DNA of 64,000 nt. Source: Candidatus Versatilivorator sp. (GTDB taxonomy: Bacteria > Acidobacteriota > Terriglobia > Versatilivoradales > Versatilivoraceae). Of this stretch, positions 5,572 to 50,271 are shown piece by piece. Positions within the stretch are counted from its first letter, which is position 1. Each line of letters starts with the position of its first letter. The notes under the pieces were generated by a model. That model was not told the origin of the DNA and searched no databases. It saw only the letters and a program-made list of their open reading frames with translations. Where the stretch lies: the NCBI GenBank assembly GCA_965207735.1, contig OZ242296.1:1309808-1373807 (forward strand), written 5' to 3'. The position numbers and the translations under genes were made by a program.

Positions 5572-7328
5572 TCCGAAGAATTCTCCCTCGACCGAATTCT
5601 CAACTGCTGCCGCAGCTCGTCCGTAGCTTCCGGGTCCACCTGGCCGGCACTGTCCAGGACGACGCCATAGTCCTGCCGAGCCCTTTCTCGAGAGACCTTG
5701 TCGTTCCTGACATCCCGAGCGACTGCCGCCGGATCCCTGGTGAGGGGGTCTCCCCATCCTCCACCGCCCGCCAATCGATGATAGACCGAGTCTCCGGTCC
5801 TGATCGAGGTCGAAATCATGGTGGGCAGAATTTCAACCCCGTCGGCCCCGGCCCGCTCACTCAGTGAGGGTGCGCCCGGCTCCCCGCCACTCAGTCCATA
5901 GGGCCGATGATCGCGTCGATCGGAGCGGATGGACAGGGTGGACTCACCGGCCAGAAGGCGCCACTTCCTTTCGATGGCCAAGCCACCTCGAAACCGGCCC
6001 GCTCCCCCGCTGTCGCGCACCAGTCCATAGCGCTCGATGCACAGCGGATACTCGCTTTCGGCCTGCTCCACCGGTATGTTGCCGGCAACGTTGGATGGAT
6101 TGCACAGTCCGTCGTTCCCATCCCTGTCGGGCCGTCCACCCCAGGTTCCGGTGACCAGCTCGTAAAACACGTAGGGCTTTCCCTCGGGTCTCTTGCCCCC
6201 AAAAATCAGCAGAGAATTGCCGCCTTCTCCGGCCGCGAACACGCGGTCGGGCAGCAATCCGGCCAGGGCTCCCCGTACCGTGTCCGAAAGACGGAACCCC
6301 GTAACCCCTCGCATCGAGGATGCGGCAGGCATGCAGGCGTTGGCCACCGTGCCTTCCGGGGCGATGACCTTGAATGGCTTGAACATGCCGGCAGTGTTGG
6401 GAATGTCCGCTTGAATGACCGATCGCAGGCAGACGGCGACCACCGAGGTGGTAAACGAGAGCGTACAGTTGATGCCACCGGGCACTTGGGGAGCGGTCCC
6501 GGAAAAATCGGCGGTCAAGGTGTCGCCGCTGACGGTTAGGGTCACCTGCAGCCGGACCGGAGGACCTCCAACTCCATCGCTATCCATGTAGTCGGTAAAA
6601 CTGGAGGATCCGTCCGGCCAGGAGGCGATCTCTGAGCGAACCAGGCGCTCCGTATAGGCCAGAAGGTCTCGACAGCACCCCTGGAATGTCTCCAGGCCGT
6701 ATCGCTCGATGAGCTTCAGGACGGAATTTACTCCGATATGGGTAGCAGACAGTTGAGCTCTCAGATCTCCCAGCGTCATTTCAGGAATCCGGACGTTGGA
6801 GGCAAGCAATGCAAAGATGGATTCGTCCGGCCGGCCTCGCCGGTACAGCTTGAGCCAGGGGATTCGCAGTCCCTCCTGGAAGATCTCCGTATTGTCGCAA
6901 GCGGCGCTTCCAGGCAAACGACCTCCCAGGTCTGCGTGATGAGCGGTGCTGACGGCAAACGCGACCCGGCGATCCTTCCAGAAGACAGGGCGGACTACAA
7001 AGATGTCGGGGATGTGCATGCCGCCATCGAAGGGGTCGTTGAGAATGAACACATCCCCGGGATCGATTTCATGTCCGTATTTTTTCAAGAGGGTCCGCAT
7101 GGCAAACGGGACCGAGGCGATGTGATGCGGGAGTGTGACGCCCTGGGCGATCATCTGCCCCTCGGCGTCGCACAGGGAGGTGGAAAAGTCCAGGCAATCC
7201 CGCACAATGGTGGAATAGGCCGTGCGGTACAGGCTGAGCGCCATCTGGTCGGCTGCCGACGCCAGGCCATGTTGCACGATGGCCAAGGTGATCGGATCGG
7301 TTCTTTGTGCCGCCTCACCCGTGTTCAT
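5568..7328 (-). CDS. hyuB: hydantoinase B / 5-oxoprolinase subunit (HyuB family)
   Basis: 586 aa with hydantoinase_B hallmark regions. 4-nt ATGA overlap with hyuA. Confidence 0.9.
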   Translation of the reverse strand: MNTGEAAQRTDPITLAIVQHGLASAADQMALSLYRTAYSTIVRDCLDFSTSLCDAEGQMIAQGVTLPHHIASVPFAMRTLLKKYGHEIDPGDVFILNDPFDGGMHIPDIFVVRPVFWKDRRVAFAVSTAHHADLGGRLPGSAACDNTEIFQEGLRIPWLKLYRRGRPDESIFALLASNVRIPEMTLGDLRAQLSATHIGVNSVLKLIERYGLETFQGCCRDLLAYTERLVRSEIASWPDGSSSFTDYMDSDGVGGPPVRLQVTLTVSGDTLTADFSGTAPQVPGGINCTLSFTTSVVAVCLRSVIQADIPNTAGMFKPFKVIAPEGTVANACMPAASSMRGVTGFRLSDTVRGALAGLLPDRVFAAGEGGNSLLIFGGKRPEGKPYVFYELVTGTWGGRPDRDGNDGLCNPSNVAGNIPVEQAESEYPLCIERYGLVRDSGGAGRFRGGLAIERKWRLLAGESTLSIRSDRRDHRPYGLSGGEPGAPSLSERAGADGVEILPTMISTSIRTGDSVYHRLAGGGGWGDPLTRDPAAVARDVRNDKVSRERARQDYGVVLDSAGQVDPEATDELRQQLRIRSRENSSE

Positions 7329-10542: not shown

Positions 10543-11769
10543 CTAACCGGTCGGCTTTTCGATCCGATAGAGGTGACTGTCGGTTCTCAAGTATATGGCG
10601 CGGCCATGCACGGCAAAAGAGGCCAGGGTGCGACCCGGCAACCGGTTGGTGCCCAGCTTCTTGAACGCCTTCCCGACCTCCAGGATCGTGGCCTCTCCCT
10701 CTTCGTTCAGCAAATAGATTTTCCCGTCGGCATACACTGGCGAAGCCGAATATTCTCCCGGCAGCCTTTCCTGCCAGTGGTGCTTGCCGGTCCGGGCGTC
10801 CAGACAAGATGCGATGCCTCGATCGCTCACCATGTAGAGCTCCTCTCCCACCAACAGTGGAGAAGGATTCAGCGGCACCCCTCGTTTCAAGGTCCAGGCC
10901 ACGTGACTCTCGGTCACATCCCCCTGGCCATCGGGGCGGATCGCATAGAGTGAGGGATGCGGGTAACCCGTGCAAATATAGACCAATCCCAGGCCAAAAA
11001 CAGGGCGAGGAACCAGCGAAAACCCATCGTAGCGCACCCGCCAGATCTCCTCTCCGGAGAGTGGATGGTAGGTCACGACCTGATCGCCTCCCGTGCTGAC
11101 CAATTGGGGCTTACCCTCCACCTGTATGGTCAACGGCGTTGTGTAAGCCATCCGCCCCTTGCGAGACTTTTTCCAGCGCAGCTTTCCCGTATGCTTGTCC
11201 AGGGCCGCCACGAACTGCAGGTCGGTGCCGTCGCAGTTGTAGATGAGAAGGTCCTGGAACAGGACCGGAGAACTGGCCGGCCCGTGGCGATGATCGTACT
11301 CGAACCGGTGCTTCCAAAGGATCTTGCCGTCGCTGCGAAGGCTGGCCGAGCCGAATGCTCCAAAGTGGACATAGACTCTGTCCCCTTCCAGAACGGGAGT
11401 GGGAGAGGCATGGCTGTTCTTGGAATGGATGGAGCCCGCCTCCTCCTGGCGGAAGATCTCCAGGTCGTGGAGCAGTTTTCCATCGCTTCGGCTCAGACAC
11501 AAGGCTCGCAGCGAACGTCCTTCGTCAACCGAGGCGGTCAACCAGATCTTCTCGCCTTGAATGACCGGTGACGACCAGCCGTTTCCCGGTAGGGGAACCT
11601 TCCAGGCGATATTCTTGGTTTCGCTCCATTCCTTTGGGAGGCCACGGGCGGAAGCATGACCCTGGCCCCCCGGCCCCCTGAACTGTGGCCAGTCCTCCTC
11701 TTGAGCGGACATTCGATGTTGGAACAGGACCAGAGTAGACAGAAGAAGAAGGATGGCGGGACGCCTCAT
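10543..11769 (-). CDS. PQQ-like beta-propeller repeat protein (BamB/PQQ-binding-like), secreted
   Basis: Signal peptide MRRPAILLLLSTLVLF. Repeated W-rich propeller blades. AAGGAG RBS before the ATG at 11769. The longer ORF to 11883 is a leader extension. Confidence 0.8.
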   Translation of the reverse strand: MRRPAILLLLSTLVLFQHRMSAQEEDWPQFRGPGGQGHASARGLPKEWSETKNIAWKVPLPGNGWSSPVIQGEKIWLTASVDEGRSLRALCLSRSDGKLLHDLEIFRQEEAGSIHSKNSHASPTPVLEGDRVYVHFGAFGSASLRSDGKILWKHRFEYDHRHGPASSPVLFQDLLIYNCDGTDLQFVAALDKHTGKLRWKKSRKGRMAYTTPLTIQVEGKPQLVSTGGDQVVTYHPLSGEEIWRVRYDGFSLVPRPVFGLGLVYICTGYPHPSLYAIRPDGQGDVTESHVAWTLKRGVPLNPSPLLVGEELYMVSDRGIASCLDARTGKHHWQERLPGEYSASPVYADGKIYLLNEEGEATILEVGKAFKKLGTNRLPGRTLASFAVHGRAIYLRTDSHLYRIEKPTG

Positions 11770-12293
11770 TATGAACTCCTTGCCGAATTCCCGATTCGTT
11801 TGGCAGCCTCCGCCCGAATTTCCTGCCATGAACCGGAAGCCCGGTGGGAAATACGGGCGAAGTACCCTGAAAGCAAGACGCAACGTTATGCCAACTTACC
11901 TAATGATTCAACTTAATTGAACACACAGGGTTGCGATCCACACCCCTCAATCACCCTGCCGGACCCTATCAGGCCACCATGACCATTGGGACGGCGCTTT
12001 CAATCGAGTCCCTATCCTATCTCAAAGTATTGATTTTAAGGACCATTGATGGCAGCGCTTCCTGCCGGTCCGCAGGCAACACCCCCGGTTGCCCTTGCAT
12101 CACACTCGGGACATTCCATGAAATTCGTCAACCGGCCATCAGCCCTGGACACCGCTCAAGACTCAAACTGGAAGGTTTTGATCGTGGAAATACCATTTCT
12201 CTCCAGCTATACTGATCCAGTTCAGGCCTTTCCGACGAGTCCGTTATTTTCCGGCAAGTGAAAACCATCGCTAACACCGGGAGGTCCTCAGCC

Positions 12294-14618
12294 ATGACAA
12301 GTCGACGCGGAATCTTGGTTCTGCTTTCTCTCGTCGCCGTGTCTTTCAATCACTCGACACTGGCACAGTCGCCGGAGACCGGTCCGGCGCTGGGTGTCGC
12401 CAGGCTCAGCCTGGTCAAGGGCGACGTCACCGTGCAGCGAGGCGAATCGGGAGATTCGATTCAGGCCACGGTCAACCTGCCGCTGGTGGAAGCCGATATT
12501 CTGACCACCGGACCGGCTTCCCGCGCCGAACTCCAGCTGGACTCTTCCAATTTTCTGCGCCTCAACGAATACTCCGCGGTTCGACTGGCCAATCTCGCCC
12601 ATCGAACCTTCCGGGTTCAACTGGAGCGCGGGACCCTCACTTACAGTGAATTGAGGGGCGGAGACGCGGACATCGACATCGAAACCCCGCTGGCGGCGGT
12701 TCGTCCGGAAAAGAACGGCCGCTACCGGGTCGAAGTCGTCGGTCTTGACCGGGTGACTGTCACCGTGCGCAAAGGACGGGCCGAGGTGGCCTTGGCAAAT
12801 GGGACGGAAACACTCAAAGCCGGTCAACGCATGATGGTCCACAAGGGACACCAGAACATCGAATTCCAGGTGGCCAAGGCCGATCCCGCGGACGACTGGG
12901 ACCTCTGGAACGTGCGCCGGGACCGGCAACTCAGGAAGTCCAAGGCCTACAGCTACGTGAACCCCAGCATCTACGGCGCGGAGGATCTGGATGATCACGG
13001 CCGTTGGGTCTACGTTCCCAGCTATGGCCGCTGCTGGTTTCCCTCGGTAACGGTGGGCTGGGCTCCCTATCGCTACGGGCGCTGGTCATGGTTGGACTAC
13101 TATGGCTGGACCTGGGTCAGTCACGACCCCTGGGGCTGGGCTCCCTACCACTACGGGCGCTGGTTCCGCCACGCCCGTTTCGGTTGGGGCTGGTATCCCG
13201 GCTCCTATTACTCCCGTCACCATTGGCGACCGGCCCTGGTGGCCTTTTTCGGGTACGGCGGCCGCGGCGGGCCAGGGATCGGCCTGGGTTCGAGGTTCGG
13301 ACATTACGGCTGGATTCCACTGGCGCCTGGCGAGCCCTACTATCCCTGGTATGGCCGTCGTGTTCACCGCCGCGCGAGGCCGGGCAGGGGCGGCTCGACC
13401 GTCCTGGTCGACAACCGGATCAATATCTACAACAACTATCGCAATGCCCGCCATCGCAACGGCACCACCCTGGTCGCCGCCAGGGCATTCTCCCGAGGAC
13501 AGATTCTGAATGCGCGCGCCCTGCAGGCCTCCGAGGTAAGACGGGCCAGCCTGGTGCGCGGCCGGATTCCGGTCGTACCCGATCGCACCAGCCAGGGACG
13601 ACTTGTTCAGAGAGCCCGCCGCTCGGCTCAAGGTGCCGGCTCCACCGCTCAAACCCGCTTCTTTTCGACCGGACGCGCACGGCGCAACATCGCCCGTCGT
13701 TCTTTCGTCCAGCAGCGCCAGGAGATGGCCCGATTCGTCGATTCCCTGGGTCGAAGCGACGTCCAGGCCGGCCGGCCGGCCAATCCCCGCTCTTCCGCCA
13801 GGCCCGAAGCGGGTCGTTCGGCGCCAGGTTTACGGCCACCGGGGACGACTACCAGCAGGTCCACGGTAGGATCCACCAACCGGCGCAGCCTGCCGTCACG
13901 GTCAAATCCGGCGGCGGTCCGCGGTCGGAGTAACGTCGATCGAAACCCCACAGGCGCCGTGAATTCTCCACGTCCAACGGCTGCCCGTCCGGATGGCGGG
14001 AACCGGCCGGACTCGCTCGAGCGCTGGCGGCGCTTAAACCGCCGCACTGCCACCCAAGGTACGATCCCGCGCGGGACACCCTCCAGAAGCTCGACTCCGC
14101 GCGCGGCTGAATCGGTGTCCGAATCTTCCCCTTCGGTGCCGTCGGTCCCTCCAGTGCGACCCTCTCCGCGCTTCGCGCCCAGAAGTTCCTCTCGAGTCGA
14201 CAGCGTCCGCGGGCAGAGCTCTCCCAGCAACAGCCGGCCGTCCCGCTCGGTCTCCAGGCCCTCCAGCCGAAGCTCTTCGCGGGTCTCGACGCCGTCACGG
14301 CCTTCGCCGCCACGGTCCACCTCGAGGGTTCGCAGCTCTTCCAGCCGCAGCCGTCCGTCACCTTCGGTCTCCAGGCCCTCCAGCCGGAGTTCCTCACGGG
14401 TCTCGACCCCGTCACGGCCTTCACCGCCCCGGTCCACCTCGAGGGTCCGGAGCGCCCCCAGCCGCAGCCGTCCGTCGCCTTCGGTTTCCAGGCCCTCCAG
14501 CCGGAGTTCCTCGCGAGCCTCTACCCCCAGTCGCTCGAAGTCAAGCTCCTCCATCCAACGTAGTAAATCGCGGAGTTCGAGCAAGAGCCAGTCGCGAAGC
14601 CGATCTCAAAGGCGTTAG
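12294..14618 (+). CDS. FecR-domain protein with Trp/Gly/Tyr-rich GRW-repeat region and a ~330-aa Arg/Ser/Pro-rich low-complexity C-terminal tail
   Basis: GGGAGG RBS 9 nt before the ATG at 12294. Signal-peptide-like MTSRRGILVLLSLVAVSF. FecR-type segment (GDVTVQRG...ADILTTGPASRAELQL). WGWAPYHYGRW-type repeats. C-terminus is built from 120-bp tandem DNA repeats. Confidence 0.8.
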   Translation: MTSRRGILVLLSLVAVSFNHSTLAQSPETGPALGVARLSLVKGDVTVQRGESGDSIQATVNLPLVEADILTTGPASRAELQLDSSNFLRLNEYSAVRLANLAHRTFRVQLERGTLTYSELRGGDADIDIETPLAAVRPEKNGRYRVEVVGLDRVTVTVRKGRAEVALANGTETLKAGQRMMVHKGHQNIEFQVAKADPADDWDLWNVRRDRQLRKSKAYSYVNPSIYGAEDLDDHGRWVYVPSYGRCWFPSVTVGWAPYRYGRWSWLDYYGWTWVSHDPWGWAPYHYGRWFRHARFGWGWYPGSYYSRHHWRPALVAFFGYGGRGGPGIGLGSRFGHYGWIPLAPGEPYYPWYGRRVHRRARPGRGGSTVLVDNRINIYNNYRNARHRNGTTLVAARAFSRGQILNARALQASEVRRASLVRGRIPVVPDRTSQGRLVQRARRSAQGAGSTAQTRFFSTGRARRNIARRSFVQQRQEMARFVDSLGRSDVQAGRPANPRSSARPEAGRSAPGLRPPGTTTSRSTVGSTNRRSLPSRSNPAAVRGRSNVDRNPTGAVNSPRPTAARPDGGNRPDSLERWRRLNRRTATQGTIPRGTPSRSSTPRAAESVSESSPSVPSVPPVRPSPRFAPRSSSRVDSVRGQSSPSNSRPSRSVSRPSSRSSSRVSTPSRPSPPRSTSRVRSSSSRSRPSPSVSRPSSRSSSRVSTPSRPSPPRSTSRVRSAPSRSRPSPSVSRPSSRSSSRASTPSRSKSSSSIQRSKSRSSSKSQSRSRSQRR
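14215..14585 (+). repeat. in-frame tandem repeat, ~120-bp period x ~3, encoding an SR/SP-rich 40-aa unit
   Basis: cagccgcagccgtccgtc(a/g)ccttcggt(c/t)tccaggccctccagccggagttcctc... recurs at ~14231, 14351 and 14471. Confidence 0.8.
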
Positions 14619-14650
14619 CGCCAATGGCTTCCGATACCCCGTAACAGAAC

Positions 14651-14684
14651 CAGCCCCCGTTTGTCACCGGGGGCTGTTCTCTGG
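14651..14684 (+). terminator. candidate intrinsic terminator after the FecR-like gene
   Basis: Perfect 9-bp stem cagcccccg / cgggggctg with loop tttgtcac, followed by ttctct. Confidence 0.45.
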
Positions 14685-14717
14685 AAAAAGATTCAGGGAT
14701 GGCGCGGAATTCTCTCT

Positions 14718-15105
14718 TGCCTGAAACAAACGCCTGCGCCTGGTGGCTGGAAACCGGTTCATAGTCAAGCATGGGTAGATTTTTGATTCACATCGATGCA
14801 CAGGATGCACAGGATTATTGGGCGAGAGATTCCACCGTCATGAGTTCAACCATCGCCTCTGTTCCAACACGGATTTCCCAAAACCCGTTCCCGGGCTCTT
14901 GGATCACTTCCAACACCCACCCGATCATTGAGCGGGTCTGCTTCCTGTGGCACAGCCTCTCGTGCTGTTTATCCTGTCTATCCTGTGTATCCATGTTCAA
15001 TAAGTAGAAAACCGGTTTAGCACGACTTGGCCCTTGTTCCCGACAGGCCATGAAGATTCGTTGTTTCACTCTCGTATGATCCGCACGGTAGGGCGGGGGC
15101 CTGGC
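14718..15105 (+). mobile_element. MITE-like non-autonomous element, full copy A
   Basis: Left arm cttgcctgaaacaa...ggaaaccggttcatagtcaagcatgggtag...catcgatgcacaggatgcacaggat. Right arm atcctgtctatcctgtgtatccatgttcaa...gaaaaccggttt...gttgtttcactctcgtatgatccgcacggtagggcgggggcc. Arms are mutually inverted (ATGGAT-nnACAGGAT-nnACAGGAT). ~80-85% identical at the ends to copy D. Confidence 0.55.
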
Positions 15106-15232
15106 GCATGAAGGGTCTCGGGAGTTCCGGCAGGAAAGTCTTGTCTCCACGCACCGATGCGTTTAATCTTCAAACCGGTTTGCATTCGACGGGTCAGGCT
15201 TTCACGGTCCCAACCAGGAAAAGGAGCGACTG

Positions 15233-16933
15233 GTGCCATTCGAGCTTTCAGCTCAACATCTGGCGGCAGTCAACCGTCGCCGCAGAGTGGTGGTCAACCG
15301 GGATGCCATACACGGAGACCCCACCTTCACTGACCCGGACATCCGGGATCTGGTCGATTACAAGTTTGACTTCATTGACCACTTCCCGACTCATATCGAC
15401 AGCCTGTGGTGGAATTGGGGGGAGGGCCACCAGGCCCCCTACCCCAGCAAGATCCTGCCCCACTACGCCCAGACCTACGACCATCCCGGCTACCAACGAT
15501 GGTTGGACGAGGGCATCGATCCCGTCCGGATCTTCTTGGAAGAAACGCACAAACGAAAGCTGGAAGCCTTTTTTGCCTATCGCATCAACGGCGGCGACAA
15601 CGACCTTCACTTGCTGCCCACCCGCCAGCTCTCGCTGAAGGAATCCCACCCCGACTGGCTGATCCATTTGCCCTGGAGAGATTCGGGGATGTGGAATTTT
15701 GCCGTTCAGGGCGTCAGGGACTACAAGTTGAGCATCCTGAGGGAGGTGGCTGAAAACTACGACTTCGACGGCATTGATATCGACTTCGCCCGCGCCCCTC
15801 CGGTGCTGCCTCCCGGCAGGCAGTGGCAGTTGCGCCACCACCTCACGGAGTTCATGCGCGCGCTCCGTTCCATGCTCCTGGAGTTCGAACGCAAGCGCAA
15901 CCGTCCTTTCCTTTTGTCGGCCAGGGTTCCGGAAACGGTTGAGGGCGCCCACTTCGACGGCCTGGACGTGGAAACCTGGGCCCGGGAGCAGATTGTGGAT
16001 CTATTCGCCCTGGGAGTGCGTTCCTTCGAGGTCGACATTCAGGGCTACCGGTCCTTCACCCGGCACCGCAACATCAAGCTCTATCCCAGCCTGGACGACT
16101 GGCACAGCAGCGACGGCTATCAATGGCCGCCCATCGAAGTCTTTCGCGCGATCTTCGCCAACTGGTGGAGGCAAGGAGCTGACGGCATCCACACCTTCAA
16201 CTTCTCTTACGGTCGCCCCGAGCCGGCAGCCCGAATCGGAGTTCCCTTTCCCGACCCCGTGGTCCACGTCTGGAGATCAGCTCAGTGGAGCGACACACCG
16301 GTCTGGGAAAGCCACCTGCAGGCCTACCGCGAAATGGGTATTCCGGCAACGCTGAGAGACCGGGACAAGACCTTCGTGATACAGCGTCGGGGTGGGGGCG
16401 GACACCCCTCTCTGGAGCCGGACAAATGGCATACTCCCCGATATTTTTATGCCAACTCCAACATGATGGCCCAACTCCCGGCCGCTTTGGCCAATGACGG
16501 CAAAGCCGATACCCTGCTTCGATTGGAGGTGGCGGACGACTTGGGCCGGAATCCCGACCGGCTCGAAGACCTCAATCTGCGGATTTTGTTGTCGGACCCG
16601 GCCGCCCAGTCCCTGCCCAACACCCAAAAACTGGAGCGCACCTTCGTCAAGCGATTCATGCAGGCCAGGATCCGGGCGCGCAAGGCCCAGCCTCCCGACA
16701 GTTACTACAACCTGCCTCCCCGAAAGGGGATCGACCGGCAGATCGAGGTGAGACTGAACGGGGCGTTACTGGCTCAACCCGCAATTGAAGAGGGATGGCT
16801 GACGTTTCGGCCGCGGGGAACGCAGTTGGTTGCCGGCGCCAACCTGTTGGGGATTCGGCGCACCCGCCCGGTAGCCGATACCCAACCCCGGATGCAGGTG
16901 GAAAAGGTCGAACTGAAGGTGCGCTACCGATAG
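15233..16933 (+). CDS. glycoside hydrolase-like family 10 (GHL10/DUF187-type TIM barrel) protein, cytoplasmic
   Basis: 566 aa. YDFDGIDIDFARAPP motif typical of PF02638-like proteins. AAGGAG RBS 6 nt before the GTG start. Confidence 0.55.
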   Translation: MPFELSAQHLAAVNRRRRVVVNRDAIHGDPTFTDPDIRDLVDYKFDFIDHFPTHIDSLWWNWGEGHQAPYPSKILPHYAQTYDHPGYQRWLDEGIDPVRIFLEETHKRKLEAFFAYRINGGDNDLHLLPTRQLSLKESHPDWLIHLPWRDSGMWNFAVQGVRDYKLSILREVAENYDFDGIDIDFARAPPVLPPGRQWQLRHHLTEFMRALRSMLLEFERKRNRPFLLSARVPETVEGAHFDGLDVETWAREQIVDLFALGVRSFEVDIQGYRSFTRHRNIKLYPSLDDWHSSDGYQWPPIEVFRAIFANWWRQGADGIHTFNFSYGRPEPAARIGVPFPDPVVHVWRSAQWSDTPVWESHLQAYREMGIPATLRDRDKTFVIQRRGGGGHPSLEPDKWHTPRYFYANSNMMAQLPAALANDGKADTLLRLEVADDLGRNPDRLEDLNLRILLSDPAAQSLPNTQKLERTFVKRFMQARIRARKAQPPDSYYNLPPRKGIDRQIEVRLNGALLAQPAIEEGWLTFRPRGTQLVAGANLLGIRRTRPVADTQPRMQVEKVELKVRYR

Positions 16934-17411: not shown

Positions 17412-17714
17412 GGTTCTTCCTTTCAGTGAGGAGGCGTCGATCCGAAACTGCTTCGGGAAAAGTACACCGAGGGCCGGCCCTTCCATGACCCGGGCCGGGA
17501 AAATCATAACATCTCGCGTGAACTTGGGTCCGGCCTCCTTCGAATCCGGGACTCGCTCGGGTGGAACCGAAAAGGGTTCCGGACCCTTTCCGGAATGTAA
17601 AACAATCGGCAGTGGCAGCCGGTCATGCCAGGAGGCGGCGGGGAAGGCTGTTCGATAGCGCGATTACGAATAGACACCCCGGCTTCAGTGGAATGATCCG
17701 GCGGATGGGGACCC

Positions 17715-19178
17715 ATGAAACTCTTTCTCGCCTGCCTGGGCACGGAAACCAACACCTTTTCTCCTTTCCCCACCGGGTACCGTACCTTCGAGGAAACCTG
17801 CCTGGTCCGAGGCGGCGACCATGGCCGCAACCCGTTTCTCTTTGCAGTGCCACTGGTGCTCTGGCGCCAACTGGCCTCCGAGCGCGGCTGGGCGGTGGAG
17901 GAGAGCCTCTGCGCCTTCGCCCAGCCTTCCGGAGTGACACTGCGTAGCGTCTACGAGTCCTTCCGGGAAGAAATCCTGGAGGATCTCCGGCGGGCCCTGC
18001 CGGTCGACATGGTTCTGCTCAGTCTGCACGGAGCCATGGTCGCCGACGGATATGACGACTGCGAGGGGGACCTGCTGGCTCGCATTCGCGCCCTGGTCGG
18101 CCCAAAGGTACCGGTCGGGGCGGAATTGGATCTCCACTGTCATCTGACCCACCGGATGGTGGAGGAGGCCACCGCCATCGTCAGCTTCAAGGAGTACCCT
18201 CACACGGATGCCGCCGACCGGGCGCGGGAGCTCTTTCAGATCCTGTCCGCGACTGCCTCGGGCTCCCTCAAGCCTCACATGGCCCTCTACGATTGCCGCA
18301 TGATGGGCATCTACCACACCACCTCCGAACCCATGAAGAGCTTTCTGGAGCAAGTGAAGCACCTGGAGCAGCAGAAAGGGATCGTTTCGATCTCCATTGC
18401 CCATGGGTTTGTCTGGGGTGACGTTTCCGACATGGGAACTCGGATACTGGTTCTCAGCGACGGCAAACCCCGGGAAGGAGCTCGCCTGGCCGAATCCCTG
18501 GGCCGTCAACTGTTCCAGCTGCGTCATCGGCTCCAGCCCGACTACAAGACCATAGACGAGGCCCTGGGCGAGGCCTCGACCGGGGACGGAGATCCGGTGG
18601 TATTGGCGGACGTGGCCGACAACCCGGGCGGAGGCGCTCCCGGAGATTCCACCTTTATTCTCCAGGCGCTGGTCGATCGCCGGATGAAGGATGCCGGCCT
18701 GGCCTGCATCTGGGATCCGATGGCTGTAGCCGTGGCCAGTGAAGCGGGAGAAGGGGCCCGATTCGACCTGCGCCTCGGAGGCAAGACGGGGCCGAGCTCG
18801 GGCCGCCCCCTGGATCTTCGGGTGACGGTAACCAGGGTGGTCCCCGGCGCCCGCCAGACCTTCGGCAGCGGCGCCAACCGGTCGGTCTCGTCTCTGGGAG
18901 ATGCCGTCGCTCTGCGCGCCGGCGGTATAGACATCGTGGTCAACTCCATTCGCACTCAAACCCTGGGCAGCGACGCCTTCACCAGTCTGGGCATCGATCC
19001 TCGGACCAAGCGGATTTTGGTGGTGAAATCCATGCAGCATTTCCACGCTGCTTTCGCGCCCCTCGCCCGGCAAATCCTGTATGTGGACACACCGGGAGCC
19101 CTGGTAAGCGACCTGACGCGAATCCCCTTTGGCAACGCGGACCGGAGCAAGTGGCCAATCTGCGAGACTGTGACCTGA
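17715..19178 (+). CDS. MlrC-like M81-family metallopeptidase (DUF1485 + MlrC C-terminal domain), complete
   Basis: 487 aa. GTETNTFSP, HGAMVADGYDD, ADNPGGGAPGDST motifs. Paralog of the gene at 1-887. Confidence 0.85.
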   Translation: MKLFLACLGTETNTFSPFPTGYRTFEETCLVRGGDHGRNPFLFAVPLVLWRQLASERGWAVEESLCAFAQPSGVTLRSVYESFREEILEDLRRALPVDMVLLSLHGAMVADGYDDCEGDLLARIRALVGPKVPVGAELDLHCHLTHRMVEEATAIVSFKEYPHTDAADRARELFQILSATASGSLKPHMALYDCRMMGIYHTTSEPMKSFLEQVKHLEQQKGIVSISIAHGFVWGDVSDMGTRILVLSDGKPREGARLAESLGRQLFQLRHRLQPDYKTIDEALGEASTGDGDPVVLADVADNPGGGAPGDSTFILQALVDRRMKDAGLACIWDPMAVAVASEAGEGARFDLRLGGKTGPSSGRPLDLRVTVTRVVPGARQTFGSGANRSVSSLGDAVALRAGGIDIVVNSIRTQTLGSDAFTSLGIDPRTKRILVVKSMQHFHAAFAPLARQILYVDTPGALVSDLTRIPFGNADRSKWPICETVT

Positions 19179-19350
19179 CAGTCCGGATCGGTCATTCCTT
19201 GAGGCCGAATACTTTGCTCCTGGAGCCGTTGACAAAAGGAGCACAGGTGCGCGTCCGGTCCAGAGGGATAGCGGTCCCTGGACCCGTTCGCCTTATGGTA
19301 TCCTTGGGGTTGCTACTGGTCAGTACCGCGGTGTCGAGGTCGGCGTTCCC

Positions 19351-21367: not shown

Positions 21368-23920
21368 ATGTTGCTTCTTAGACAGCCTCACCATTCACTG
21401 GCGAAGATCCTGGCCATTCTCCTGACGTGCCTGGGGTGCAGTTCCGATTTGGCCCACGGCCAGGCGGCCGCGAATCCCCCAACCCTGCTTTCGCTGCGGA
21501 TTGTACCGGAGGAAATTCATCTGTCGGGTCTCAATCCCTCCCAGCAGATACTGGTGCTGGGCAGGTATTCCGACGGCCTGGAACGGGACCTGACGGGTGG
21601 GTCGCCCCTGGCGGTGGGCTCTCCCGAGGTGGCTGTCATCGAGGCTGAAGGCAGATTGACTGCCCGTGCCGAGGGGGACACGGTCCTGGAAACCCATGTG
21701 GCCGGCCACTCAGCCAAGGCAACACTGACGGTCCGGTCGCTGGCCACGTCCCCACCCTTCAACTTTCAACAGGACATCGGTGGAATCCTGACCAAGCGGG
21801 GTTGCAACGACAGTGGTTGCCATGCGGGTGTCAAGGGACGAGGAGGTTTCAAGCTCTCCCTCAACGCGTTGGATCCGAAGGGAGACTACCGTTGGATCGT
21901 CAAGGGCGGCACCTACCAGGTCATGAGCCTGGAATCGGCGGGTCCTGAGTCTCCACGCATCGATCTGAGCCAACCCGAAAACAGCCTGCTGCTGCGCAAA
22001 CCCACCCTCCTTTTGCCTCATGGGGGTGGAGAGCGCCTGAGCACTCAGTCTTCCGACTACCGTACCCTGCTGGGCTGGATTCAGGCCGGCGCCCCCTACA
22101 AGCCCAAGGATTCAGAGGTGGAAGTCGAGCAGGTAACCCTGTTTCCCAAGGAACGCGTGCTCGATGCGCGCGGCACTTACCAGCTACTGGTCACTGCCCG
22201 ACTTGCCGACGGTCGAACCCGGGATCTGACCCGCCAGGCCTCCTACCATTCCGGCAACGAAGAGGTGGTGACGGTGACTGACTCCGGTCGAGTCCAGGCA
22301 CGGTCCAGGGGGGAAACGACCATCATCGTCCGCACGGCCGGTCATACCGTCAGCGCGCGTTTCGGAGTCATCTCCAAGCCTTTGCCGTCCAGCCCTTCGC
22401 CCCCGTCTCACAACTTTATCGATGACTACGTGTTCGGCAAGTTGAGTCGCTTTCACATCCCCTCTTCCCCGCTCTCCAGCGACGCCGAGTTTCTGCGCCG
22501 GGTCTGCCTGGACTTGACGGGAACGCTCCCGCCGCCCGGTCGGGTGCGGGAGTTTATTGCCAGTCGGGACCCTCAAAAACGAACGAAACTGATCGATGCC
22601 CTGTTGGATTCTCCCGAGTACGTGGACTTTTGGACTTTTCGCTTCGGCCAGCTCTTCCGGGTCGCGGCCGGCGCCGTCGGCGGGGCCGAGCATGCCTACG
22701 CCTACTGGCGCTGGGTCTGGGAGAACATCGCCCAAAACAAGTCCTATCGGGAGATCGCCCTGGACCGGCTGTCGGCCCAAGGCTACGAAGGCGCCTCCAG
22801 ACACTTTCTTTCCTACGGAGAAGAGGCCCGGGCGCCGGAAATCATGCCGGAAGAGGTGCGTATCTTCCTGGGAAGACGGCTGGATTGCGCCCAATGTCAC
22901 GACCACCCCTATGAGCAGTGGAGCCAGGATCAATTCTGGGGGCTTGCGGCCTTCTTCGGACAGATCAGCAGAACCGAATGGACCGGATTCGGGGCGGCGG
23001 TTCTCTTTGACGATCCCGCCGGCCGCCAACCGGATTTCGGAGAGTCTCCGGAAACCGTGAAGGTGATTCACCCCCGTCGCAAGCAACTCGTCGAGCCCGC
23101 CTTCCTGAACGGGCAAGCCATCTCTCCGACGGGCAACGGGCATCCGCGCCGGGAGTTCGGCCGCTGGGTCACGGCCCACCCCTATTTTGCGGAAACCCTG
23201 GTCAACCGCATGTGGGGTTACCTTTTTGGACGCGGCCTGGTGGATCCGGTGGATGATTTCCGCTCGACCAATCCGCCGACCCATCCCGATCTATTGAAGG
23301 CTCTGGCCGAGGACTGCCGCCTCCACGGATACGACCTGAAGCACATCCTGCGTCGCATCACCCGTTCCCGGGCCTACCAGCTTTCCTCGACTCCCCATGA
23401 GTCCAACCGCGAAGATGCCCTGAACTACTCACACTTCATCCCCAAGCCGCTGGAAGCCGAGGTGCTTCTGGACGCCATCAGCCAAGTGACCGGCGTCCCT
23501 GAAATCTTCGAGAACGGTCAGGGAGGTCAGGCTCCCCCGGGAACCCGAGCCATCCAACTCGAGGTGCCCGACATTTACCCCTCCGACTTTCTGCAGATGT
23601 ACGGGCGACCCAATCTTCAACAGATCCCGGAAATCAACGCCTCACCCAGCCTCACCCAGGCGCTTCACATGCTGGCGGGTAAGACCTACACGGAGAAGAT
23701 TTCCGGAAAAGGCGGGCGGCTCGACCGCTTGTTGCAGGAGGACGCCTCCCACCGGGAGGTGATTGAGGAACTCTATCTGGCAGCCTTGTCGCGCCTGCCC
23801 TCACCGCTGGAACTGGCCGAGCTGGAAGCCGCCTTGGGCAAGGGGCCCGAAAAAAGGCGGGCCTGGGAAGACCTGCTCTGGAGCCTGGTCACCTCCCGAG
23901 AGTTTGCCTTCAACCACTGA
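21368..23920 (+). CDS. PSCyt (planctomycete-type cytochrome c-like) / DUF1549 / DUF1553 protein with Ig-like Big_2 region
   Basis: 850 aa. Signal peptide. GCNDSGCHAG and LDCAQCHDHPYEQW motifs. Canonical pairing with the downstream DUF1501 gene. Confidence 0.85.
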   Translation: MLLLRQPHHSLAKILAILLTCLGCSSDLAHGQAAANPPTLLSLRIVPEEIHLSGLNPSQQILVLGRYSDGLERDLTGGSPLAVGSPEVAVIEAEGRLTARAEGDTVLETHVAGHSAKATLTVRSLATSPPFNFQQDIGGILTKRGCNDSGCHAGVKGRGGFKLSLNALDPKGDYRWIVKGGTYQVMSLESAGPESPRIDLSQPENSLLLRKPTLLLPHGGGERLSTQSSDYRTLLGWIQAGAPYKPKDSEVEVEQVTLFPKERVLDARGTYQLLVTARLADGRTRDLTRQASYHSGNEEVVTVTDSGRVQARSRGETTIIVRTAGHTVSARFGVISKPLPSSPSPPSHNFIDDYVFGKLSRFHIPSSPLSSDAEFLRRVCLDLTGTLPPPGRVREFIASRDPQKRTKLIDALLDSPEYVDFWTFRFGQLFRVAAGAVGGAEHAYAYWRWVWENIAQNKSYREIALDRLSAQGYEGASRHFLSYGEEARAPEIMPEEVRIFLGRRLDCAQCHDHPYEQWSQDQFWGLAAFFGQISRTEWTGFGAAVLFDDPAGRQPDFGESPETVKVIHPRRKQLVEPAFLNGQAISPTGNGHPRREFGRWVTAHPYFAETLVNRMWGYLFGRGLVDPVDDFRSTNPPTHPDLLKALAEDCRLHGYDLKHILRRITRSRAYQLSSTPHESNREDALNYSHFIPKPLEAEVLLDAISQVTGVPEIFENGQGGQAPPGTRAIQLEVPDIYPSDFLQMYGRPNLQQIPEINASPSLTQALHMLAGKTYTEKISGKGGRLDRLLQEDASHREVIEELYLAALSRLPSPLELAELEAALGKGPEKRRAWEDLLWSLVTSREFAFNH

Positions 23921-50195: not shown

Positions 50196-50271
50196 GGCGA
50201 GGTACCCAAGTGGCTAAGGGAGAGGTCTGCAAAACCTTTATTCAGGGGTTCGAATCCCCTCCTCGCCTCCA
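50196..50271 (+). tRNA. tRNA-Cys (anticodon GCA)
   Basis: Cloverleaf: acceptor GGCGAGG/CCTCGCC, 3-bp D stem, anticodon stem GAGGT/ACCTT, loop CUGCAAA, T arm AGGGG-TTCGAAT-CCCCT, discriminator U73, encoded CCA. Confidence 0.9.

What the first reader, a model, noticed from the sequence alone, without database searches (positions are those of the whole stretch)
12294..14618. FecR-domain protein with W/G/Y-rich GRW repeats and a 330-aa SR/SP-rich tail built from 120-bp tandem repeats
The N-terminal signal peptide plus FecR-like domain is followed by an unusual segment of repeated ...YGRWxW...WGWAPYHYGRW motifs. After that comes an extremely low-complexity Arg/Ser/Pro tail (SRPSPSVSRPSSRSSSRVSTPSRPSPPRSTSRVRS x3), encoded by three near-identical 120-bp DNA repeats (14215-14585). 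Such repeats are prone to copy-number variation.

Unlike classical FecR anti-sigma factors, there is no adjacent ECF sigma factor and the N-terminus looks exported. The highly basic, Ser-rich tail resembles nucleic-acid- or polyanion-binding tails. The antisense ORFs 12288-12998 and 13649-14584 are artefacts.
Basis: seen in the sequence. Interest (0 to 1): 0.5.

Follow-up and report, generated by a model that had tools for sequence, protein, structure and literature searches.

The report
Exported FecR–DUF6600 protein with cationic tail
This is a real gene for an exported acidobacterial protein from a large, already catalogued family of unknown function (FecR-like domain plus DUF6600), and its unusual part is a long, disordered, strongly positive Ser/Arg/Pro tail that includes a 39-residue repeat whose copy number differs between close relatives.

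Summary

The tandem repeat has a 117-bp (39-aa) period, not 120 bp, and covers only the last third of the tail. Its copies are 86% and 62% identical. It is under purifying selection (omega 0.15-0.19) and occurs in about 1 to 4 copies in close orthologues.

This is not a FecR-type anti-sigma factor. It has no cytoplasmic domain, no transmembrane helix and no STN domain. No ECF sigma gene was found in the 64 kb window.

The architecture is widespread: the DUF6600 query hit 11,041 cluster representatives. Acidobacterial members carry Ser/Arg- or Gly/Arg-rich cationic tails; betaproteobacterial members carry Pro/Ala-rich tails.

Function is unknown. My best inference is an envelope or surface protein with a ligand-binding head and a polycationic tether. 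It is a new member of a known but uncharacterised family, of modest interest.

The parts
12185..12213 (+). sigma-70-like promoter candidate (TGGAAA-17-TATACT); weak evidence
   Evidence: Consensus scan, 9 of 12 matches. Not validated.
12279..12284 (+). Shine-Dalgarno-like GGGAGG, 9 nt upstream of ATG 12294
   Evidence: Read directly from the sequence.
12294..14618 (+). Coding sequence, 774 aa plus stop. FecR-DUF6600 family protein.
   Evidence: ORF list. Pfam. P0001 is 95% identical over the N-terminal 470 aa and has the same length. dN/dS is 0.08-0.38 in every segment.
12294..12365 (+). Sec-type signal peptide, aa 1-24, predicted cleavage TLA|QS. No lipobox Cys.
   Evidence: n/h/c regions are visible in the sequence. 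A basic residue, a hydrophobic stretch and an '..A-Q' motif recur in 110 of 112 homologues. The RR pair is not conserved, so a Tat signal is unlikely.
12393..12878 (+). FecR/CJM-like all-beta domain, aa ~34-195. The Pfam FecR match covers aa 69-163 (12498-12782).
12981..13331 (+). DUF6600 domain, aa 230-346. Three ~27-aa Trp/Tyr/Gly beta-hairpin units (..GWAPY[RH]YGRW.W....[YF]GW.W..) plus a fourth hairpin.
13404..13613 (+). Conserved Asn-rich region, aa 371-440 (..VDNRINIYNNYRNARHRNG..GRIPVVP..), modelled as part of the folded head
   Evidence: Invariant N377, N384, F399, G423, P426, P429. pLDDT 76-90. Collinear with the Rhodoferax homologue.
13614..14615 (+). Low-complexity, predicted disordered polycationic tail, aa 441-774. 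Net charge +61, segment pI 12.0.
   Evidence: Composition and charge. AF2 pLDDT below 50 for aa 441-454 and 460-470. A tail is present in the 80 related loci where it could be delimited, always net positive, 130-656 aa. omega 0.15-0.38.
13656..13718 (+). Conserved island at the start of the tail (RFFS...RRSFVQQR)
   Evidence: F..QR occurs in 122 of 192 tails and RFF in 43 of 192. The region aligns with the betaproteobacterial homologue.
14019..14036 (+). Conserved short motif ERWRRL (family consensus G-W-R-R-F) in mid-tail
   Evidence: W.RF occurs in 112 of 192 tails. Visible in the consensus.
14217..14567 (+). Tandem repeat, three units of 117 bp (39 aa): SSPSNSRPSRSVSRPSSRSSSRVSTPSRPSPPRSTSRVR and variants. 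The third unit is half-degenerate.
   Evidence: TRF score 461. The repeat finder. 11 synonymous versus 3 non-synonymous codon differences between units 1 and 2. Shuffle control. Copy number about 1 to 4 in close relatives.
14651..14676 (.). GC-rich hairpin 33 nt after the stop codon (CAGCCCCCG-loop-CGGGGGCTG). Possible terminator; the T-run on the + strand is weak.
   Evidence: Scan and sequence.

Best explanation
Shown:
- The locus encodes a Sec-exported, non-lipoprotein member of the FecR-DUF6600 protein family in an Acidobacteriota genome.
- It has a compact folded head (aa ~34-440). The head consists of a FecR/CJM-like beta domain, a Trp/Tyr/Gly beta-hairpin DUF6600 domain with no solved structural relative, and a conserved Asn-rich segment.
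- It has a ~330-aa low-complexity Ser/Arg/Pro tail, predicted to be disordered (+61 net charge; mature protein pI 11.8).
- The distal third of the tail arose by tandem duplication of a 39-aa unit. That unit is under purifying selection and varies from about 1 to 4 copies among close relatives.
- It lacks the defining parts of a FecR-type sigma regulator.

Inferred:
- It acts in the periplasm, at the cell surface or in the extracellular matrix as a stand-alone binding or scaffold protein.
- The aromatic-rich head recognises a specific envelope or matrix ligand, most likely a glycan or a partner protein.
- The flexible polycationic tail tethers the protein by multivalent electrostatic contacts to polyanions such as LPS or exopolysaccharide, extracellular DNA, or negatively charged mineral surfaces.
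- Repeat gain and loss tunes tail length and charge.
For: Gene and domains.

Export: the signal peptide is kept in 110 of 112 homologues. There is no other hydrophobic segment.

Family:
- More than 7,900 homologues were found; the top 120 are 377-822 aa and those with a source name are Acidobacteriota.
- The DUF6600 query hit 11,041 50%-identity cluster representatives.
- The head is 33% identical and collinear with a Rhodoferax ferrireducens DUF6600 protein, E 5e-59.

Tail:
- It is net positive in the 80 related loci where a tail could be delimited (0.03-0.19 charge per residue). The C-terminus nearly always ends ..R-x-R.
- Conserved GWRRF and F..QR islands are present.
- omega is 0.28-0.38 for the proximal tail and 0.15-0.19 for the repeats, similar to the folded domains at 0.08-0.37.

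Repeat copy-number variation.

Precedent: short cationic Ser/Arg tails (CotB1p SGRARAQRQSSRGR, SB7 RQSSRGR) and disordered cationic regions (Si-tag) bind silica electrostatically with nM affinity (PMC11818168). A stand-alone FecR-domain protein appears in a table of the Legionella type II secretome study (PMC12239567).
Against: - No experiment or characterised homologue exists. Searches for DUF6600 and for FecR with acidobacterial names found nothing relevant.
- There is no conserved gene neighbourhood to suggest a pathway.
- Betaproteobacterial members have Pro/Ala-rich tails with a median of only +10 charge in the last 200 aa. Polyanion binding therefore cannot be the family-wide role of the tail. 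A spacer or spanning role fits all members better.
- The synonymous/non-synonymous pattern in the repeats is shared by the wobble-coincident antisense frame. That particular test does not by itself fix the reading strand.
- The final location (periplasm, surface or secreted) is not known.
Confidence: 0.5

Rival explanations
1. The tail is a passive spacer or entropic bristle. In this reading it is an extended disordered segment that spans the periplasm or peptidoglycan, or keeps the head away from surfaces. Only length and disorder are selected, and the positive charge is incidental to the acidobacterial lineage.
For: - Tail sequence and composition differ completely between branches: S/R/P, G/R/S and P/A.
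- Length ranges from 130 to 656 aa.
- Repeat copy number changes freely.
- The Pro/Ala-rich tails of the betaproteobacterial branch resemble TonB/TolA-type spanning segments (resemblance from general knowledge).
Against: - Within Acidobacteriota the tail is net positive wherever it could be delimited.
- The C-terminus keeps an R-x-R ending, and short motifs (GWRRF, F..QR) are conserved.
- omega in the repeats (0.15-0.19) is as low as in the folded domains.
- There is no C-terminal domain for a spacer to connect to.
Confidence: 0.25
2. The Ser-rich tail is mainly a substrate for extracytoplasmic modification such as O-glycosylation or phosphorylation. It would then form a glycosylated stalk, as in serine-rich repeat adhesins.
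For: - 28% Ser across the tail and 46% in the repeat region.
- A YfhO-family membrane protein (PF09586) is divergently transcribed next to the gene in 18 of 84 related loci. From general knowledge, YfhO proteins are implicated in extracytoplasmic glycosylation of cell-envelope polymers.
Against: - The YfhO neighbour is confined to a sub-clade. It is absent from the window and from its syntenic relatives.
- No glycosyltransferase, accessory Sec or sortase genes are adjacent.
- Many family tails are Gly/Arg- or Pro/Ala-rich rather than Ser-rich.
Confidence: 0.08
3. It is a FecR-like cell-surface-signalling regulator that works with an ECF sigma factor and a TonB-dependent transducer encoded elsewhere in the genome.
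For: It has a genuine FecR/CJM-like domain.
Against: - No cytoplasmic anti-sigma domain and no transmembrane helix. The FecR domain starts about 10 residues after the signal peptide cleavage site.
- No STN or DUF4974 domain.
- No ECF sigma in 64 kb.
- No sigma factor or TonB-dependent receptor in the gene tables of nine related loci.
Confidence: 0.03
4. The tail is an artefact. Possibilities are a frameshift fusion of two genes, an assembly-expanded repeat, or the antisense ORF 13649-14584 being the real gene.
For: - A few database proteins (P0002, P0012, P0011, P0018, P0030) read a different frame after about aa 465.
- The antisense ORF is 311 aa long and shows the same synonymous-difference pattern.
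Against: - P0002 and P0012 come from one long-read assembly. They carry single-base indels, after which the S/R tail frame stays open for over 300 codons to the same ..SRSRSQRR/QKR stop.
- The great majority of homologues have a contiguous tail.
- The repeat copies are diverged, and independent assemblies L003 and L004 share them.
- The antisense ORFs have no Pfam match. Their openness follows from the lack of Tyr/His/Gln codons.
Confidence: 0.02

Closest known systems
DUF6600 domain-containing proteins (Pfam PF20245, usually preceded by FecR PF04773). Examples: Acidobacteriota MAG protein MEW5977403.1 (P0029) and the Rhodoferax ferrireducens protein P0274.
   Same: Same order of parts: signal peptide, FecR-like domain, DUF6600, Asn-rich region, long low-complexity repetitive tail. 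The N-terminal 470 aa are 61-95% identical to acidobacterial members. The head is 33% identical to the Rhodoferax protein, E 5e-59. The window protein is a member of this family.
   Different: The tail here is Ser/Arg/Pro-rich with about 0.18 net positive charges per residue. Bryobacteraceae members have Gly/Arg/Ser tails at 0.04-0.09 per residue. Betaproteobacterial members have Pro/Ala-rich tails. No member has a known function.
Periplasmic domain of FecR/PupR-type anti-sigma regulators (PupR CCSSD, PDB 6OVM; BDI_1681, PDB 4M0H)
   Different: No N-terminal anti-sigma domain, no transmembrane helix, no STN subdomain, and no neighbouring ECF sigma or TonB-dependent transducer. It shares a fold, not the system.
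Cationic silica-binding tails: Bacillus cereus CotB1 C-terminal peptide (SGRARAQRQSSRGR; SB7 RQSSRGR) and the disordered termini of ribosomal protein L2 ('Si-tag')
   Same: Disordered, Arg/Ser-rich, very basic terminal segments. The family C-termini (..SRSQSRSRSQRR..GGRGR) resemble CotB1p in composition. The documented binding is driven by ionic contacts with anionic surfaces (PMC11818168).
   Different: No sequence homology was shown and no binding was tested. The tail here is 20 times longer. CotB1 is a spore-coat protein and L2 is ribosomal. This is an analogy of mechanism only.
Exported FecR-domain proteins without sigma partners (Leptospira Lsa33-type surface proteins; a Legionella FecR domain-containing protein listed in the type II secretome study)
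   Same: A signal peptide followed directly by a FecR-like domain, with no regulatory module.
   Different: The NCBIfam Lsa33 match is not significant (12.2 bits against a cutoff of 420). The comparison with these proteins rests on general knowledge; their sequences were not examined here.

Membership tests
FecR/PupR-type cell-surface-signalling anti-sigma regulators | N-terminal cytoplasmic anti-sigma domain | tested here: not met
   Residues 1-24 are a signal peptide and the conserved beta domain begins at about aa 34. There is no Pfam match N-terminal to FecR.
FecR/PupR-type cell-surface-signalling anti-sigma regulators | Single transmembrane helix separating the cytoplasmic and periplasmic parts | tested here: not met
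   The only hydrophobic stretch is the h-region of the N-terminal signal peptide, followed by an A-x-A-type cleavage motif.
FecR/PupR-type cell-surface-signalling anti-sigma regulators | Periplasmic FecR (juxtamembrane) beta domain | tested here: met
FecR/PupR-type cell-surface-signalling anti-sigma regulators | C-terminal STN-like subdomain that contacts the transducer | tested here: not met
   No STN or DUF4974 Pfam match. The sequence after the FecR domain is DUF6600. Only 138 of 213 PupR residues align.
FecR/PupR-type cell-surface-signalling anti-sigma regulators | Adjacent ECF sigma factor and TonB-dependent transducer genes | tested here: not met
   phmmer with RpoE found nothing in the six-frame translation of the window. 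The neighbours are a PQQ_2 propeller and a GHL10-like protein. Neither gene type appears in the gene tables of L001-L004 and L085-L089.
FecR-DUF6600 family (Pfam PF20245) | DUF6600 profile match above the gathering threshold | tested here: met
   89.5 bits against a cutoff of 27, covering profile positions 2-101 of 102.
FecR-DUF6600 family (Pfam PF20245) | Collinear homology of the whole head to proteins named DUF6600 domain-containing | tested here: met
   The best 120 homologues cover 66-100% of the 470-aa query (most over 85%), and 105 of them carry both domains. NCBI names were confirmed for P0029 and P0112. 33% identity over aa 35-516 to the Rhodoferax ferrireducens protein.
FecR-DUF6600 family (Pfam PF20245) | N-terminal signal peptide and long low-complexity C-terminal tail. 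This is an empirical family trait seen here, not part of the Pfam definition. | tested here: met
Serine-rich repeat adhesins of Gram-positive bacteria | LPXTG cell-wall anchor, accessory SecA2/SecY2 export and dedicated glycosyltransferases | tested here: not met
   The protein ends ..SRSRSQRR with no LPXTG motif or hydrophobic anchor. No such genes are among the neighbours.
Polycationic surface- or silica-binding tails (CotB1p / Si-tag type; a functional class) | Demonstrated high-affinity binding to an anionic surface | not testable with these tools
   Only composition, charge (+61 in 334 aa) and disorder can be shown.

The most novel reading that the evidence does not exclude
The FecR-DUF6600 proteins could be a widespread, unrecognised class of bacterial envelope or matrix proteins. 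In this reading, a head with a new fold is combined with a rapidly evolving extracellular disordered tail. In Acidobacteriota the tail has become an RS/RGG-like polycation that glues cells to anionic exopolymers, extracellular DNA or mineral (silica or clay) surfaces, possibly by coacervation. Tandem-repeat gain and loss would tune adhesion strength.
Probability: 0.15. Interest if true: 0.55.

Novelty: new member of a known kind. Interest (0 to 1): 0.3.

Why it matters
- The family is large: the DUF6600 query hit 11,041 clusters at 50% identity. No member has been studied.
- The central domain has no solved structural relative.
- Acidobacteriota are abundant in soils, and how they attach to particles and matrix is poorly understood. 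If the cationic tail proves to be a surface or polyanion tether, this would be a common and easily recognised adhesion module.
- For genome annotation, the immediate value is negative. These genes should not be called FecR anti-sigma factors, and truncated 'frameshifted' versions in long-read assemblies are probably sequencing errors.

Tried and rejected
- **Literature.** Searches for 'DUF6600', 'FecR domain' with Acidobacteria, FecR with Solibacter, and FecR with Bryobacter found nothing relevant.
- **Sequence search of the PDB.** No hit better than E 0.2.
- **NCBIfam.** Only a non-significant Lsa33 match.
- **Tail-only protein search (aa 603-774).** No hits at all, not even the known orthologues. 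HMMER's composition correction makes this test uninformative.
- **afdb50 fold library.** Not available.
- **Conserved gene neighbourhood across 84 loci.** Only sub-clade synteny was found: a YfhO-family protein in 18 loci and NRAMP plus Usp in 14. Nothing is family-wide. The three betaproteobacterial loci also share no neighbours.
- **Tat export.** Rejected because the RR pair in the signal peptide is not conserved.
- **Other genes with similar tails, or paralogues, in the window.** None found.
- **Rfam scan of 11700-15400.** Only a chance-level miRNA match.
- **Synonymous-difference test between repeat units as proof of reading strand.** It cannot discriminate the gene frame from the wobble-coincident antisense frame. 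The strand assignment rests instead on ORF continuity with the conserved head and on family-wide tails.
Full report
**The gene.** The + strand carries one uninterrupted ORF ending at TAG 14616-14618. The longest version starts at GTG 12258. ATG 12294 is preceded by GGGAGG at 12279-12284, and every close homologue starts with the same MTSRRGILV sequence. A promoter-like site lies at 12185-12213, and a GC-rich hairpin lies 33 nt after the stop. The gene is transcribed divergently from a PQQ_2/BamB-like propeller gene and is followed by a GHL10-like gene. It looks monocistronic.

**Domains.**
- Pfam finds FecR (PF04773) at aa 69-163 (E 2.1e-7).
- Pfam finds DUF6600 (PF20245) at aa 230-346 (E 1.7e-25, 89.5 bits against a cutoff of 27).
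- DUF6600 consists of three ~27-aa units (GWAPY[RH]YGRW.W....[YF]GW.W) plus a fourth hairpin.
- An alignment of 80 homologues shows 59 invariant positions in the first 430 residues, many of them Trp or Gly. A conserved Asn-rich stretch (aa 371-440) follows DUF6600.

**Structure.**
- An AlphaFold2 model of aa 1-470 built on that alignment is confident: mean pLDDT 81, pTM 0.81, with 250 residues at or above 90. It predicts an all-beta FecR-like domain, a connecting helix, stacked beta hairpins for DUF6600, and low confidence for aa 441-454 and 460-470.

**Export, and why it is not an anti-sigma factor.**
- Residues 1-24 form a typical Sec signal peptide: a basic n-region, a 12-residue hydrophobic core, and TLA|QS.
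- By a simple hydrophobicity heuristic, 110 of 112 homologues keep this pattern and an '..A-Q' motif. The Arg-Arg pair is not conserved, which argues against Tat. There is no lipobox.
- The protein lacks a cytoplasmic anti-sigma domain, a transmembrane helix and an STN domain.
- phmmer with RpoE found no ECF sigma in the six-frame translation of the 64 kb window.
- The gene tables of nine related loci show neither sigma factors nor TonB-dependent receptors.
- It shares a fold with FecR but fails four of the five defining features of the FecR system.

**The tail.**
- Residues 441-774 contain 94 Ser, 69 Arg and 42 Pro out of 334, only 11 acidic residues, and no Tyr, His or Cys. Net charge is +61.
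- The mature protein has pI 11.8 and net charge +84.
- Two short islands are conserved across the family: RFFS...F..QR at aa 455-475 and (G)WRR(F) at aa 576-581.

**The tandem repeat.**
- The repeat has a period of 117 bp (39 aa), not 120 bp.
- The units lie at 14217-14333, 14334-14450 (86% identical) and 14451-14567 (62% identical; only the first ~26 codons are recognisable).
- It covers about the last third of the tail, not the whole tail.
- It is far beyond chance. The best in-register identity of adjacent 117-nt windows is 106/117. The maximum in 2000 codon shuffles was 61.

**Is the tail real coding sequence?**
- Units 1 and 2 differ at 16 nucleotides, giving 11 synonymous and 3 non-synonymous codon changes.
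- The same pattern appears in the antisense frame whose wobble positions coincide with the gene's (10 versus 3). That is exactly the frame of the 311-aa antisense ORF 13649-14584, so this test alone does not fix the strand.
- Other evidence fixes it. The tail is continuous with the conserved head. Homologues of 700-820 aa carry contiguous tails in thousands of genomes.
- The antisense ORFs have no Pfam match. Antisense stops in that frame need Tyr, His or Gln codons on the sense strand, which the tail almost lacks.
- Against two syntenic orthologues (L003, 95% identical over the N-terminal 470 aa; L004 from GCA_028875575.1, 84%), dN/dS is 0.38/0.28 for the proximal tail and 0.15/0.19 for the repeats. 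The FecR, DUF6600 and Asn-rich regions range from 0.08 to 0.37. The tail is as constrained as the folded parts.

**Frameshift and assembly questions.**
- A few database proteins (P0002 and P0012, both 546 aa) read another frame after about aa 465. Both come from one long-read assembly. In their DNA the Ser/Arg frame stays open for more than 300 codons to the usual ..SRSRSQRR or ..QKR stop.
- These are single-base indels, most likely sequencing errors. They do not indicate that the tail is a separate gene.
- The repeat units are too diverged to be an assembler expansion, and independent assemblies L003 and L004 carry the same three units.

| Copies of the 39-aa unit | Sequences |
|---|---|
| 3 | window, P0001, P0006, L085 |
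| 4 | L086 |
| 2 | P0004, P0010 |
| about 1 | P0005, P0009 |

**Family distribution.**
- The 470-aa head found over 7,900 homologues. Those among the best 120 that carry a source name are labelled Acidobacteriota (Bryobacterales, Solibacteraceae, Terriglobia).
The 80 kept are all Acidobacteriota.
- phmmer with DUF6600 alone against 1.84 billion cluster representatives gave 11,041 hits at E<=1e-3 and 4,699 at E<=1e-10.
- In the 80 related loci where a tail could be delimited, it is 130-656 aa, low-complexity and always net positive. It is Ser/Arg/Pro-rich (about 0.18 charges per residue) in the window's clade and Gly/Arg/Ser-rich (0.04-0.09) in Bryobacteraceae. It nearly always ends ..R-x-R.
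- A second large branch in Betaproteobacteria (Rhodoferax, Polaromonas, Duganella and others) has the same head, 33% identical and collinear. It also has a 300-400-aa repetitive tail, but that tail is Pro/Ala-rich and only mildly basic.
- A long, disordered, fast-evolving repetitive tail is therefore a trait of the whole family. The polycationic Ser/Arg chemistry is the acidobacterial version.

**Genomic context.** The window is syntenic with L003, L004, L085 and L086: hydantoinase A/B, DHDPS, PQQ_2 propeller, this gene, GHL10-like, MlrC. More distant loci have unrelated neighbours. Clustering flanking ORFs of 84 loci found only sub-clade synteny. The largest group, in 18 loci, was identified as a YfhO-family membrane protein. 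The next, in 14 loci, looks by its sequence like an NRAMP transporter fused to a Usp domain (no profile search run). The window contains no paralogue and no other protein with a similar tail.

**What it most likely does.**
- Shown: it is an exported, stand-alone FecR-DUF6600 protein with a folded head and a predicted disordered, polycationic, repeat-containing tail under purifying selection.
- Inferred: the aromatic-rich head binds a specific envelope or matrix ligand, and the tail tethers the protein to polyanions or anionic mineral surfaces.
- The inference rests on charge, on predicted disorder, and on the documented nM silica binding of short Arg/Ser tails such as CotB1p (SGRARAQRQSSRGR) and of the disordered cationic Si-tag (PMC11818168).
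- The main rival is a passive spacer or spanning segment, which fits the Pro/Ala tails of the betaproteobacterial branch better.
- Modification of the Ser-rich tail is a weaker rival. A signalling role and an artefact are essentially excluded.
- No literature exists on the family.

**Verdict.** The gene is a new member of a catalogued but uncharacterised family, not a new kind of system. Interest is modest. It rests on the size of the family, the absence of a solved structural relative for DUF6600, and the consistent extracellular polycationic tail in Acidobacteriota.

Noticed in passing
L085:3001-5430 and L086:3001-5550 (same sample ERZ25067264, long-read contigs): The orthologous genes are called as 546-aa proteins because of single-base indels near codon 465. 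The Ser/Arg tail stays open in another frame to the normal stop. L086 carries four 39-aa units and L085 three. This is probably long-read indel error rather than pseudogenisation.
   Followed up: yes
L085:5457-6631: The intergenic region downstream of the orthologue is about 820 bp longer than in the window. It holds two copies of a 133-nt element (92% identical), further 38-40-nt partial copies, and a perfect 31-nt inverted repeat (6009-6039 / 6192-6222). This is a small repetitive intergenic element that was not detected in window 14619-15232.
   Followed up: partly
L003 (contig NODE_4883, 10,629 bp): The held sequence of this short-read locus stops 9 nt after the stop codon of the orthologue, which probably marks the contig end. 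That would fit an assembly break at the downstream repetitive element or at the repeat-rich tail.
   Followed up: no
L019:3629-5860 and 17 other loci (L025, L026, L033, L035, L037 and others): A ~740-aa polytopic YfhO-family membrane protein (PF09586, E 7.9e-15) is transcribed divergently next to the FecR-DUF6600 gene in 18 of 84 loci. This could be a lead for tail glycosylation or merely sub-clade synteny.
   Followed up: partly
P0274, P0355, P0265 (betaproteobacterial homologues): Their Pro/Ala-rich tails contain their own unrelated tandem repeats. P0274 has about three copies of a ~100-aa unit, and P0355 has about four copies of a ~31-aa QPRPQPMPPHEQP.. unit. Repeat expansion in the tail has therefore happened independently in different branches.
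   Followed up: partly
window 13004-13933 (+), 12288-12998 (-), 13649-14584 (-), 17685-19244 (-): Long shadow ORFs overlap real genes, as is typical of ~60% GC DNA. One example is a 519-aa ORF antisense to the MlrC/M81 peptidase gene at 17715-19178. The three overlapping the studied gene have no Pfam match. ORF length alone is not evidence of a gene in this window.
   Followed up: partly
window 21368-23920 (+): An 850-aa protein carrying Big_2, PSCyt2 (DUF1549) and PSD1 (DUF1553) domains. It sits in a block of hydrolase-like genes conserved with L004.
   Followed up: no
window 50196-50271 (+): tRNA-Cys (GCA), the only tRNA gene in the 64 kb window.
   Followed up: no
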